Assembly (NCBI RefSeq): GCF_030013205.1 | Contig: NZ_CP122648.1 | DNA length: 64,000 bases | Source: Escherichia coli | GTDB taxonomy: Bacteria > Pseudomonadota > Gammaproteobacteria > Enterobacterales > Enterobacteriaceae | Direction: 5' to 3' (one strand) | Shown here: positions 19,757-25,499 of the stretch, piece after piece | How positions within the stretch are numbered: the first letter of the stretch is position 1 | Layout of the letters: each line of letters starts with the position of its first letter | The notes under the pieces: generated by a model | Told to the model about the DNA's origin: nothing | Databases searched by the model: none | Seen by the model: only the letters and a program-made list of their open reading frames with translations | Translations under genes and position numbers: made by a program

Positions 19757-20251
19757 TCAGAACAGCCCTTTAACTGAACTGGCCGCGCTGTTAAGGGATG
19801 ATGTCACTTTATCTTTGAAGCCGGACAGCATATCGCTGAACGATGAGGATTGCAGGCGCTCCCGCAAATCCTCATCACAGCGTTCAAGGGTCAGTGAAAA
19901 TTCTATCTTTTTCGCCTTACCGTAGCGATCAAACTCGGAACGGGTCGTATTCGTTTCGGTCAGGACATACATGCCGTAAATCTGCCCGACGCCATCAATA
20001 AGAGGCCAGGGGCGTCCTGTATACGCCTGCGTGGTCAGCAGCGACAGCGACACTTCGCCACCTGTAATTTCAGGATAAAGCACACCAGAAAGAACGATGC
20101 GATCATCACCTGCACCGATATACTGCCAGCTTGCTGAACGGTTAACGCGTTCATTTTTCACATGCCGCCAGCTTTTGTTTTGCTGTAACTGCTGATGCGG
20201 CAGCGTGCGCAGCTCAAAAACAAACATGCCGTAGATCATCATCATGGCCAT
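19757..20251 (-). CDS. P2-like tail protein U
   Basis: 164-aa ORF following T on the minus strand. Confidence 0.7.
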   Translation of the reverse strand: MAMMMIYGMFVFELRTLPHQQLQQNKSWRHVKNERVNRSASWQYIGAGDDRIVLSGVLYPEITGGEVSLSLLTTQAYTGRPWPLIDGVGQIYGMYVLTETNTTRSEFDRYGKAKKIEFSLTLERCDEDLRERLQSSSFSDMLSGFKDKVTSSLNSAASSVKGLF

Positions 20252-20257
20252 GACTCC

Positions 20258-24158: not shown

Positions 24159-25342
24159 CAGGCACCTCCCAGCACCGCAAATGCGGGACCAAAGAATTCA
24201 TCAGTAAACGACTGATAAAGCTCCATGTCTTCCAACGGGGGAACAGGCGTATATTTGTAGCGAATACGCACGCGCCCCTGACGTAAATCCGTGGTGCTGT
24301 TATCCACCACGTCATACCAGCACTCCGCGCCAATCAGTTTCCCGGCAGTCACCAGTGAATCCAGTTTTGCCCTGATGGCACTGATAACATCCTTCACGTT
24401 CGCAGGCGTCAGTGGACTGTCGATGGTTTCAAACTGCGCTTCCGCAATTGAATCAGCCAGCACCTGTGCGGTTCGGGTATACACCTCAAAGATGTAGGCG
24501 TTCGTTTCCGGTGTGCGGTTGCCCCAGAAGCGGAACCCGTTGCGACGAATAATGGTCGTGATTTCTTTGTTGTTGAGGCTGTTGGCATCGCTGTCTTCGG
24601 CCTGCAACGACCAGAACACATGCCTCGACATCCCCAGCACATTTTTAACAGGAACGTTGGACAGTGATTTGTGCCAGCCCTGCTCATGGTCAATGTACGC
24701 ACGAAGGCCGCACGCATAGGCAGGCGCGGGGAACGTTTCGTTTTTGCCACTTTTCGGGTTGTAGGCGATGAAGTCCGGCCATAAGAGCATCACCTCACGT
24801 TCGTTGAATTTCTGGCGGTAGGTAATCGCATCAGCCATCGTGTCACAGCCATGACATGAGGCATACACAAACGCGCGCAGTTTACCCGCAATCACGCACA
24901 GGGATTTTGTCACCGCCTCCGTGTCCAGCTCCGGCGCGGCCAGAATACGCGGACGGTATCCGATGCTTTCATCCTGCTCTGCAACAAGCAGCGCATACAT
25001 CCCCGTATAGCTGCCGTCAGATTCAGAACCACCGATAACCAGTTGATCCTGCGTCTTTCCGTCTTCTTCTTTGTGTTCAGCCACGCGAACGACGATCACC
25101 TTTGTGCTCACCTGGTCTGCGATAGCCTTAAGCGCACGATAAAGCGTCCCCGTTGTCCCGCATTTTCCCAGCACGTCATTGACGCGGGTCAGCAGTGTGG
25201 GCTTGTTCAGCGGGAACAGCTTCGCGTCCGCATCATCCGCCGTTGCCACGATACCGATAACACTGGAATCAACATCATTAATCGCTGTTACCAGGTCGGT
25301 ATTTTCCGTAACACGGGCACCATGAAAACGAGTTTCACTCAT
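24158..25342 (-). CDS. tail sheath protein (FI-like)
   Basis: ATG at 25342 (MSETRFHG...); motifs FPLNKP, LRAF, WPDF, DHEQGWHK, IRRNGFRFWGNRT, YTPVPPLE match P2 FI as I recall it. Confidence 0.9.
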   Translation of the reverse strand: MSETRFHGARVTENTDLVTAINDVDSSVIGIVATADDADAKLFPLNKPTLLTRVNDVLGKCGTTGTLYRALKAIADQVSTKVIVVRVAEHKEEDGKTQDQLVIGGSESDGSYTGMYALLVAEQDESIGYRPRILAAPELDTEAVTKSLCVIAGKLRAFVYASCHGCDTMADAITYRQKFNEREVMLLWPDFIAYNPKSGKNETFPAPAYACGLRAYIDHEQGWHKSLSNVPVKNVLGMSRHVFWSLQAEDSDANSLNNKEITTIIRRNGFRFWGNRTPETNAYIFEVYTRTAQVLADSIAEAQFETIDSPLTPANVKDVISAIRAKLDSLVTAGKLIGAECWYDVVDNSTTDLRQGRVRIRYKYTPVPPLEDMELYQSFTDEFFGPAFAVLGGA

Positions 25343-25499
25343 AGCTTCAGCCCCTTGTATCCGTAAAATGATTCGGCAACAATCATCACCCACCACGCGC
25401 GTAATCTCACCCCTGCGCCGTTCTCCCGACCCGGCGACAACAAAAAGCAGTAACCCCCTCCGCACGCACATGCGACCATGCCGCACAGGGAGGGAACAG

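What the first reader, a model, noticed from the sequence alone, without database searches (positions are those of the whole stretch)
19757..25499. Inversion of the FI-FII-E-T-U tail block relative to I-H-G and D-ogr
In P2 the genes I-H-G and FI-FII-E-T-U-D-ogr are all transcribed in one direction. Here I, H, G, D and ogr are on the plus strand, but FI, FII, E/E', T and U form a colinear block on the minus strand. FI and D start divergently about 160 bp apart (25342 and 25500). A roughly 5.6 kb inversion with breakpoints near 19.6-19.75 kb and 25.35-25.5 kb explains this. Together with the missing head genes it marks the element as a decaying prophage, unless it is an assembly artefact.
Basis: partly seen in the sequence, partly recalled or inferred. 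Interest (0 to 1): 0.5.

Follow-up and report, generated by a model that had tools for sequence, protein, structure and literature searches.

The report
Normal gene order of P88-type phages
The tail-gene block that looks "flipped" compared with phage P2 is the normal, working gene order of a whole branch of P2-like phages (the P88 group), so it is not a sign of decay or an assembly error; this copy is broken for a different reason, two internal deletions.

Summary
I, H, G, D and ogr lie on the plus strand. U, T, E/E', FII and FI lie on the minus strand (19757-25342). FI and D start divergently, 157 bp apart.

The window is E. coli ETEC4079, and the element sits between dmsA and serS. Window 19752-26619 is one collinear 6.9 kb match (93.5% identity) to the plaque-forming phage P88 (genus Xuanwuvirus), which has the same orientation.

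- The same layout occurs in Klebsiella Kp4848-1, Serratia KSP20 and Salmonella SEN4, and in 80 of 80 related viral contigs.
- The real FI|D junction is in 1357 of 5426 complete E. coli genomes. A synthetic P2-type U-to-D junction is in none.
- In FI and D trees the flipped phages form one clade (200/200 bootstraps).
- No inverted repeats link the two boundaries.

So this is an old inversion fixed in a lineage of viable phages.

The 151-157 bp FI-D spacer carries one central Ogr-type box (TCT-N12-ACA here). Weak -10 hexamers lie 48.5 bp to each side, as at P2's shared PP/PO site. I infer a bidirectional late promoter that gives D (and ogr) its own transcript.

The prophage is defective, but through two deletions (A to O, and N to J). 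Interest is low.

The parts
7420..7439 (.). Left copy of a 20 bp direct repeat (AAAGCGCCCGCAGGCGCTTT). It is the probable att core at the dmsA/STnc130 side of the prophage.
   Evidence: longest exact repeat between the two prophage ends; STnc130 at 7314-7448; integrase at window 7523-8515 (locus coordinate minus 1001).
14758..14760 (.). Junction of deletion 1 relative to P88. P88 6038-14932 is lost: most of A, parM, the portal Q, the terminase P and the 5' part of O.
   Evidence: blastn of the prophage against P88; PGAP pseudogene fragments of the replication protein and of GPO scaffold.
15109..15113 (.). Junction of deletion 2 relative to P88. P88 15288-21890 is lost: the rest of N, then M, L, X, the lysis genes, R, S, V, W and most of J.
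   Evidence: PGAP fragment of the major capsid protein.
15247..15774 (+). Gene I (baseplate/tail protein).
   Evidence: Pfam Tail_P2_I, E=7e-52; 67% identity to P2 I and 89% to P88 I.
15785..18442 (+). Gene H (tail fibre). The N-terminus is P2-like and the C-terminus differs from both P2 and P88.
   Evidence: Pfam Phage_tail_fib, Collar and fibre repeats; 86% identity to P2 H over the first 204 aa.
18442..19059 (+). Gene G (tail fibre assembly).
   Evidence: Pfam Caudo_TAP, E=1.6e-39.
19023..19586 (-). Cargo gene for a hexapeptide-repeat (serine) acetyltransferase. It sits in the variable slot between G and U.
   Evidence: Pfam Hexapep; phrog_2154; PGAP product 'serine acetyltransferase'; P88 carries G', H' and a DNA invertase in this slot.
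19704..19755 (-). Hairpin directly after the U stop codon (18 nt arms, 83% complementary). It is a possible end of the FI-U transcript. Similarity to P88-type phages ends at about 19752.
   Evidence: the repeat finder pair I4; match boundaries.
19757..20251 (-). Gene U (tail protein).
   Evidence: Pfam Phage_P2_GpU, E=5.5e-39; 99% identity to P88 U and 46% to P2 U.
20258..23101 (-). Gene T (tape measure). This is the maximal ORF from GTG; PGAP starts it at 23065.
   Evidence: Pfam PhageMin_Tail; phrog_28.
23052..23207 (-). E' extension frame. It is reached by a -1 frameshift at the slippery heptamer A_AAT_TTT (23273-23267 on the minus strand).
   Evidence: Pfam Phage_P2_GpE, E=1e-12; sequence read, where the -1 frame is continuous from the heptamer into this ORF.
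23216..23590 (-). Gene E (tail assembly chaperone).
   Evidence: phrog_103, E=1e-36; weak Pfam Phage_TAC_7 match.
23646..24158 (-). Gene FII (tail tube).
   Evidence: Pfam Phage_tube, E=7.5e-47.
24158..25342 (-). Gene FI (tail sheath).
   Evidence: Pfam sheath domains; phrog_23, E=2e-125; 45% identity to P2 FI.
25382..25387 (-). Inferred -10 hexamer of the leftward promoter PF (GATGAT on the minus strand). Its last T lies 48.5 bp from the centre of the box; the predicted transcript start is about 25375.
   Evidence: geometry taken from the P2 record's PP/PO annotation. Inference only, no transcript data.
25420..25441 (.). Ogr-type activator box GTTCTC-N10-GACAAC (TCT-N12-ACA, one mismatch to TGT-N12-ACA), centred at 25430.5 in the 157 bp FI-D spacer.
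   Evidence: conserved in 71 unique spacers; the same box type lies in the P-O spacer of P88, SEN4 and Kp4848-1; consensus cited from PMC3931495.
25471..25479 (+). Inferred extended -10 element of a rightward promoter PD (TGc GACCAT). Its last T lies 48.5 bp from the box centre; the predicted transcript start is about 25486, followed by the Shine-Dalgarno sequence GGAGGG and the D start codon.
   Evidence: Inference only.
25500..26609 (+). Gene D (baseplate hub, 'late control D').
   Evidence: Pfam Phage_GPD; phrog_52, E=4e-166; 49% identity to P2 D and 99% to P88 D. PGAP calls a shorter CDS (window 25809-26609), but the ORF is uninterrupted.
26620..27587 (+). 968 bp cargo insertion between D and ogr, which are only 42 nt apart in P88. 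It holds an orphan 227 aa ORF (26786-27469) and a terminator-like hairpin (27485-27507).
   Evidence: no Pfam, PHROG or PADLOC family.
27619..27879 (+). ogr (zinc-finger late activator).
   Evidence: Pfam Ogr_Delta, E=5e-14; 98% identity to the unannotated ogr of P88 at 34476-34733.
28471..28490 (.). Right copy of the 20 bp direct repeat, the probable att core next to the 3' end of serS.

Best explanation
The minus-strand FI-FII-E/E'-T-U block is the native gene order of a clade of P2-like phages (family Peduoviridae). The clade includes Xuanwuvirus (P88, phiSM), Reipivirus (Klebsiella Kp4848-1), Serratia KSP20 and Senquatrovirus (SEN4). One ancestral inversion of the F block, with one boundary in the cargo slot after G and the other at the U/D boundary, became fixed in these viable phages. 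This prophage inherited it.

Inferred consequence: the inversion cut D (and ogr behind it) off from the F operon. The 151-157 bp FI-D spacer appears to work as a bidirectional late promoter. It has one central Ogr-type box, with -10 elements 48.5 bp to each side. This is the geometry annotated for P2's shared PP/PO activator site. In that reading Ogr switches on FI-U leftward and D(-ogr) rightward.

The prophage is defective, but because of two later internal deletions (A to O, and N to J). These removed replication, head, lysis and baseplate genes.
For: Shown by tool results:
- Window 19752-26619 is one collinear 6878 bp blastn match (93.5%) to P88 27595-34443, spanning U, T, E, FII, FI, the spacer and D.
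- P88's annotation has the same strands. P88 and phiSM form plaques (PMC5285337; PMC6456863).
- tblastn shows the same orientation in SEN4, KSP20 and Kp4848-1. It shows the collinear P2 order in P2, Dagavirus, Ralstonia RS-AB1 and Mannheimia 1152AP.
- 80 of 80 IMG/VR loci whose D is at least 70% identical have FI divergent from D.
- The real FI|D junction is covered at 80% or more in 1357 of 5426 complete E. coli genomes. A synthetic U-to-D junction is covered in 0 of 1413.
- The same module sits at another att site (next to ihfA) in O55:H7 CB9615.
- FI and D NJ trees each place the inverted taxa in one clade, 200/200 bootstraps.

Support for the inferred promoter:
- There is one T(G/C)T-N12-ACA box at a constant position in 71 unique spacers.
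- nAnnAT hexamers lie at +/-48.5 bp, and conserved blocks appear in 20 representatives below 85% identity.
- The same box occurs in the P-O spacers of P88, SEN4 and Kp4848-1.
- The P2 record gives one activator site (3057-3087) with transcript starts at 3016 and 3127, 55.5 bp either side.
- The consensus TGT-N12-ACA is cited in PMC3931495.
- D has its own Shine-Dalgarno sequence. In all four collinear phages the U stop overlaps the D start.
Against: - Which order is ancestral rests on parsimony with only four collinear outgroup lineages and NJ trees of nine taxa.
- The mechanism of the inversion is unknown, and no inverted repeats remain at the boundaries.
- The promoter model has no transcript data behind it.
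- The window's box has one mismatch (TCT instead of TGT), so the exact pattern search missed it.
- A box with one mismatch or fewer is expected about 0.65 times by chance in 157 bp (my own estimate). The case therefore rests on conservation of position, not on the match itself.
- The -10 hexamers are weak.
- In P88's P-O spacer I found no equally well placed rightward hexamer when reading the sequence by hand.
Confidence: 0.88

Rival explanations
1. A recent 5.6 kb inversion occurred inside this particular prophage as part of its decay.
For: The element is defective, with two deletions. The order differs from P2.
Against: The region is one collinear match to the viable phage P88 across both genes that flank the right boundary. 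The same order is found in 1357 E. coli genomes, in 80 of 80 IMG/VR relatives and in three other phage lineages. No genome has the canonical junction. All genes in the block are intact, including the E/E' frameshift site.
Confidence: 0.02
2. The inversion is an assembly artefact in this genome.
For: None beyond the unusual orientation relative to P2.
Against: The arrangement is identical in more than a thousand independently assembled complete genomes and in separately deposited phage genomes, including the plaque-forming phages P88 and phiSM. The source record is a complete chromosome.
Confidence: 0.01
3. The F block is a programmed invertible segment, flipped back and forth by a site-specific DNA invertase. 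P88-type phages carry an invertase gene right next to U.
For: In P88 and in CB9615 a DNA invertase gene abuts the U end of the block.
Against: No inverted repeats pair the two boundaries. Only one orientation is seen in 1413 genomes. SEN4 and this window have the same orientation without any invertase. The invertase is placed to serve the adjacent fibre segment that carries G' and H'.
Confidence: 0.02
4. There was no inversion in place. An ancestor acquired a foreign FI-U cassette in reverse orientation by modular exchange.
For: P2-like phages are mosaic. Here I and the N-terminus of H are much closer to P2 (67-86%) than the F block and D are (33-49%).
Against: FI (inside the block) and D (outside it) recover the same clade with full support and show similar identity gradients across lineages: FI 98/70/68/55% and D 99/72/75/64% for P88, Kp4848-1, KSP20 and SEN4. 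This points to a shared history.
Confidence: 0.07

Closest known systems
Escherichia phage P88 and Citrobacter phage phiSM (Peduoviridae, genus Xuanwuvirus)
   Same: The order and strands are identical: I, H, G (+); a cargo slot; U, T, E', E, FII, FI (-); a 157 bp spacer; D, ogr, hok (+). Nucleotide identity is 93.5% over 6.9 kb. The early region (P88 2034-6037) also matches at 92-95%.
   Different: This copy lacks P88 6038-14932 and 15288-21890. It has a different integrase, repressor and cox module and a different att site. It carries an acetyltransferase where P88 has G', H' and the invertase. It also has a 968 bp cargo insert between D and ogr.
Bacteriophage P2 (genus Peduovirus), late operons V-W-J-I-H-G and FI-FII-E-E'-T-U-D with ogr
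   Same: Every gene has an orthologue (33-86% aa identity). The E/E' -1 frameshift, the Ogr zinc-finger activator and a TGT-N12-ACA type box are all present. So is the principle of one activator site serving two divergent late promoters, as at PP/PO.
   Different: In P2, FI to D is one rightward operon from PF with the U stop overlapping the D start. Here FI-U is inverted, D is divergent from FI, and D has its own ribosome-binding site and, by inference, its own promoter.
Salmonella phage SEN4 (Senquatrovirus), Serratia phage KSP20, Klebsiella phage Kp4848-1 (Reipivirus)
   Same: They share the inverted FI-U block, a divergent D-ogr, a 151-157 bp spacer with a central Ogr box, and the same -10 spacing.
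   Different: Only 55-70% (FI) and 64-75% (D) aa identity. The left half of the box is TGT in SEN4 and KSP20 and TCT in Kp4848-1 and here. Cargo and tail fibres differ.
Gin/Cin/Pin/Hin invertible segments of phage tail-fibre genes
   Same: They involve a DNA inversion next to tail-fibre genes. P88-type phages do carry such a system beside this block.
   Different: Those are reversible switches bounded by short inverted crossover sites, and both states occur in nature. Here there are no boundary repeats, only one state is seen, and no invertase is present in the window.

Membership tests
P2-like (Peduoviridae) contractile tail module | Orthologues of FI, FII, E, E', T, U, D and ogr are present. 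| tested here: met
   Pfam and PHROG hits for each gene; tblastn to P2 with E values from 1e-11 to 1e-110.
P2-like (Peduoviridae) contractile tail module | A programmed -1 frameshift makes E+E'. | tested here: met
   The slippery heptamer A_AAT_TTT at 23273-23267 (-) sits in the E/E' overlap, and the -1 frame carries Pfam Phage_P2_GpE. Frameshifting itself was not measured.
P2-type operon layout (genus Peduovirus and other collinear genera) | FI-FII-E-T-U-D lie on one strand, collinear with V-W-J-I-H-G, with U and D translationally coupled. | tested here: not met
   FI-U is on the opposite strand to I-H-G and D, and D has its own Shine-Dalgarno sequence 157 bp from FI.
P88-type (Xuanwuvirus-like) genome architecture | The FI-U block is inverted between the fibre/cargo slot and a divergent D-ogr, with high nucleotide identity to P88. 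| tested here: met
   A single 6878 bp match at 93.5% plus further blocks at 92-97%; the same strands as P88.
P88-type (Xuanwuvirus-like) genome architecture | Genus membership by genome-wide nucleotide identity. I recall the ICTV criterion as about 70% over the full length. | tested here: inconclusive
   About 15.5 kb of P88 (roughly 43% of its 35.8 kb) is deleted, and the int, C and cox module and the fibre C-terminus are unrelated. A whole-genome figure is not meaningful for a remnant.
Site-specific invertible DNA segment (Gin/Cin/Hin type) | Inverted-repeat crossover sites at both boundaries. | tested here: not met
   None of the 25 longest of 96 inverted pairs in 19400-25700 joins 19.55-19.8 kb to 25.3-25.52 kb.
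Site-specific invertible DNA segment (Gin/Cin/Hin type) | Both orientations occur among isolates. | tested here: not met
   0 of 1413 genomes have the alternative junction, against 1357 with the observed one.
Ogr/Delta-dependent late promoter | A TGT-N12-ACA dyad centred about 55 bp upstream of the transcript start. | tested here: inconclusive
   The box TCT-N12-ACA (one mismatch) is centred at 25430.5. It is conserved in 71 spacers and recurs in the P-O spacers. Its distance to a start site is inferred from -10-like hexamers only.
Ogr/Delta-dependent late promoter | Transcription depends on Ogr. | not testable with these tools
   This needs reporter or 5'-end mapping experiments.
Defective (cryptic) prophage | The element is integrated, has att repeats and an integrase, and has lost essential genes. 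| tested here: met
   A 20 bp direct repeat at both ends, an integrase, and deletions removing A, Q, P, most of O and N, then M, L, X, the lysis genes, R, S, V, W and most of J.

The most novel reading that the evidence does not exclude
In the P88-type clade the inversion created a second bidirectional Ogr-dependent late promoter. One central activator box in the FI-D spacer would drive FI-U leftward and D-ogr rightward, a copy of the PP/PO design. Because ogr lies 42 nt behind D in P88, this would put ogr under direct positive feedback from a dedicated short transcript, instead of at the end of a transcript of about 7 kb as in P2.
Probability: 0.6. Interest if true: 0.3.

Novelty: already known. 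Interest (0 to 1): 0.15.

Why it matters
This is mainly a caution for annotation. Judging P2-like prophages against P2 alone makes a quarter of complete E. coli genomes look "rearranged", when they carry the normal P88-type order. Orientation of the F block should therefore not be used as a sign of decay or misassembly.

Two smaller points follow. The inversion is a clean shared derived character for a group of Peduoviridae genera. The conserved FI-D spacer is a ready-made, testable case of how a phage rewires late transcription after an operon is split.

Tried and rejected
- **Boundary repeats.** The inverted-repeat search across 19400-25700 found no pair linking the two boundaries. The nearest pairs (for example 20747-20762 with 25429-25444) are short and look like chance.
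- **Exact box search.** TGT-N12-ACA had no match in the FI-D spacer and fewer matches in the window than in shuffles. The box appeared only when one mismatch was allowed and relatives were compared.
- **Promoter scan.** The generic sigma-70 scan found nothing in the spacer. This is expected for activator-dependent promoters that lack a -35 element.
- **Breakpoint scars.** Alignments of the U C-termini and D N-termini were uninformative, because those ends vary in all lineages.
- **Literature.** Searches on P88, SEN4, KSP20, Xuanwuvirus and P2-like plus inversion found no paper that comments on this orientation. Two searches failed on term length.
- **227 aa cargo protein.** It has no Pfam, PHROG or credible PADLOC match.
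- **Invertase origin.** I considered that the neighbouring invertase caused the inversion. SEN4 and this window lack an invertase and no crossover sites remain, so this stays pure speculation.
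Full report
**What is in the window.** The window is part of the E. coli ETEC4079 chromosome (NZ_CP122643.1; 100% match; annotation, where locus coordinate = window + 1001). A P2-like prophage lies between dmsA/STnc130 and serS. It is bounded by a 20 bp direct repeat at 7420-7439 and 28471-28490. An integrase lies at 7523-8515.

**Check of the observation.**
- Plus strand: I (15247-15774), H (15785-18442), G (18442-19059), D (25500-26609) and ogr (27619-27879).
- Minus strand: U (19757-20251), T (20258-23101), E' (23052-23207), E (23216-23590), FII (23646-24158) and FI (24158-25342).
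- D is truly gene D: Pfam Phage_GPD, and 49% identity to P2 gpD over 376 aa, E=5e-110.
- All orthologues lie on one strand in P2.
- FI and D start divergently across a 157 bp spacer.
- The block is intact. The E/E' pair keeps a slippery A_AAT_TTT heptamer with an open -1 frame that carries the GpE domain.

A megablast of 19000-27900 against phage genomes matched a set of Xuanwuvirus phages (P88, phiSM and others) over 81-92% of the query as one place on one strand. P88's own annotation shows the same layout. I, H and G are on plus. Then come G' and H' on minus and a DNA invertase on plus. Then U, T, E', E, FII and FI are on minus, and D is on plus.

A direct blastn shows window 19752-26619 as a single collinear 6878 bp alignment (93.5%) with P88 27595-34443. 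It covers U through FI, the spacer and D. P88 was induced, forms plaques and has a measured burst size (PMC5285337). phiSM is a spontaneously released, plaque-forming, lysogenising phage (PMC6456863). The order is therefore functional.

**How widespread it is.**
- The 8.9 kb query is 80% or more covered in one place in 1034 of 5426 complete E. coli genomes.
- An 800 nt probe across the real FI|D junction (25021-25820) is 80% or more covered in 1357 genomes, including EPEC E2348/69.
- As a control I built the junction a P2-type order would have: the last 400 nt of U in coding sense joined to the first 400 nt of D. 1413 genomes contain the two halves, but none contains them joined.
- In O55:H7 CB9615 the same module, with an invertase next to U, sits at a different chromosomal site beside ihfA. 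The order therefore travels with the phage and is not a chromosomal accident.
- In IMG/VR, 80 of 80 loci whose D is at least 70% identical have FI upstream of D on the opposite strand.

**How old it is.** tblastn with the window's proteins shows the inverted layout in P88, Klebsiella Kp4848-1 (Reipivirus, FI 70% identical), Serratia KSP20 (68%) and Salmonella SEN4 (Senquatrovirus, 55%). KSP20's GenBank record already labels a gpD-like gene opposite a gpFI-like gene.

The next-closest relatives are collinear like P2: Dagavirus ST13-OXA48phi12.1 (48%), Ralstonia RS-AB1 (48%), P2 (45%) and Mannheimia 1152AP (39%). NJ trees of FI (inside the block) and D (outside it) each unite the inverted taxa in 200 of 200 bootstraps.

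The simplest reading is one ancestral inversion, inherited together with its flanks. This argues against a separately imported cassette. No inverted repeats connect the boundaries, as expected for an old event, and the mechanism is unknown.

**What the inversion changed, and how the module probably works (inference).** In the four collinear phages the U stop overlaps the D start. There D is the last gene of the F operon, and in P2 the terminator after ogr also ends that operon.

In the inverted clade D is separated from U and has its own Shine-Dalgarno sequence (GGAGGG). The FI-D spacer is 151-157 bp in all five lineages. It holds one TGT-N12-ACA-type box (0-1 mismatch), centred 81.5-88.5 bp from the FI start codon and 68.5-76.5 bp from the D start codon. 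TGT-N12-ACA is the published consensus of the Ogr-dependent P2 late promoters (PMC3931495).

In the window the box is GTTCTC-N10-GACAAC at 25420-25441. Across 71 unique spacers the box is always present (44 TCT, 26 TGT, one doubtful case), and the right half ACAACA is almost invariant.

Hexamers of the form nAnnAT sit with their last T 48.5 bp from the box centre on each side in most sequences. Here they are GATGAT leftward (25387-25382) and TGc-GACCAT rightward (25471-25479). The minority that do not fit at that exact offset (for example CGATGA) mostly fit when shifted by one base. An anchored profile of 20 representatives below 85% identity shows conserved blocks exactly there.

The P2 record annotates one activator site (3057-3087) for both PP and PO, with transcript starts at 3016 and 3127. 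These lie 55.5 bp either side of the dyad centre, which puts the last base of a -10 hexamer at 48.5 bp. The same box type lies centrally in the P-O spacers of P88 (14216-14235), SEN4 (3037-3056) and Kp4848-1 (15238-15257).

I therefore propose that the FI-D spacer is a second PP/PO-like bidirectional late promoter, with starts near 25375 (-) and 25486 (+). It would give D, and in P88 the ogr gene 42 nt behind it, its own Ogr-dependent transcript. None of this has transcript evidence.

**Caveats on the promoter model.**
- The window's box has one mismatch.
- A box with one mismatch or fewer is expected about 0.65 times per spacer by chance (my estimate). Conservation of position carries the argument.
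- The -10 elements are weak.

**Where the decay really is.** Relative to P88 the prophage has lost P88 6038-14932 (most of A through the 5' part of O; junction at window 14758-14760). It has also lost P88 15288-21890 (most of N through most of J; junction at 15109-15113). PGAP marks the leftover fragments of A, O and N as pseudogenes.

Without A, head, lysis and baseplate genes the element cannot replicate or build particles. The remaining tail genes, D and ogr are intact.

**Variable slots.** Similarity to relatives stops 2-5 bp past the U stop. The slot between G and U holds an acetyltransferase here. It holds an invertase plus alternative fibre genes in P88 and CB9615, and nothing in SEN4.

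A 968 bp insert with an orphan 227 aa ORF separates D from ogr. Other strains carry YecA-family or HxsB/HxsC genes within the same matched stretch, going by feature names alone; where they sit relative to D and ogr was not checked.

**Verdict.** The inversion relative to P2 is real but ancient, lineage-wide and functional. It is neither a symptom of decay nor an artefact. The arrangement is already present in published, annotated genomes, although I found no paper that discusses it. Interest is low. The only modestly new element is the inferred bidirectional Ogr promoter.

Noticed in passing
window 13751-13948: Rfam finds isrK (13751-13825) and a C4 antisense RNA (13861-13948) in tandem inside the P2-like early operon. 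They lie within and just past the 3' end of an 'ash family' pseudogene (window 13691-13963) and upstream of the homologue of P88's 'derepression protein'. This resembles a P1/P7 immI-type antisense control module carried by a P2-like phage.
   Followed up: no
window 26620-27587 (ORF 26786-27469): A 968 bp insertion lies exactly between D and ogr, which are 42 nt apart in P88. It encodes an orphan 227 aa protein with no Pfam, PHROG or PADLOC family, followed by a terminator-like hairpin. The same gene is present in O55:H7 CB9615. Other strains list YecA-family or HxsB/HxsC radical-SAM genes within the same matched stretch. This suggests a cargo or defence hot spot, though their exact position was not checked.
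   Followed up: partly
window 19023-19586: A hexapeptide-repeat (serine) acetyltransferase gene fills the slot between G and U and overlaps the 3' end of G by 37 bp. P88 has alternative fibre genes and an invertase in this slot. It may be a lysogenic-conversion gene, for example for surface-sugar acetylation.
   Followed up: partly
window 7420-7439 and 28471-28490: A 20 bp direct repeat (AAAGCGCCCGCAGGCGCTTT), itself a palindromic terminator hairpin, lies at both prophage ends. The left copy is the 3' end of the sRNA gene STnc130 (7314-7448). The right copy follows serS. It is the likely att core.
   Followed up: partly
window 14758-14760 and 15109-15113: The two deletion junctions show 3 and 5 bp of overlap between the flanking alignments to P88. 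This hints at microhomology-mediated deletion. The small island left between them is the 3' end of O plus the 5' end of N.
   Followed up: partly
window 15247-16389: There is mosaicism at the left flank. I and the first 204 aa of H are closer to P2 (67% and 86% aa identity) than the F block and D are (33-49%). This suggests recombination of the fibre region with Peduovirus-type phages.
   Followed up: no
ETEC4079 chromosome outside the window: The tail-module matches fall at three places in this genome. Two more P88-type prophage copies probably exist and could complement or recombine with this remnant.
   Followed up: no
window 25368-25499 and 25809-26609: PGAP annotates D as a shortened 266 aa 'VgrG/Pvc8 family' CDS (window 25809-26609) plus a tiny antisense pseudogene. 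The ORF is uninterrupted from 25500, and P88's D starts at the equivalent codon. The same truncated call recurs in CB9615, so it looks like a systematic annotation error for this gene.
   Followed up: partly
window 28070-28210: A Hok/Gef-family toxin gene lies just inside the right prophage end, as in P88. No hok/sok RNA family reached the Rfam gathering threshold.
   Followed up: no
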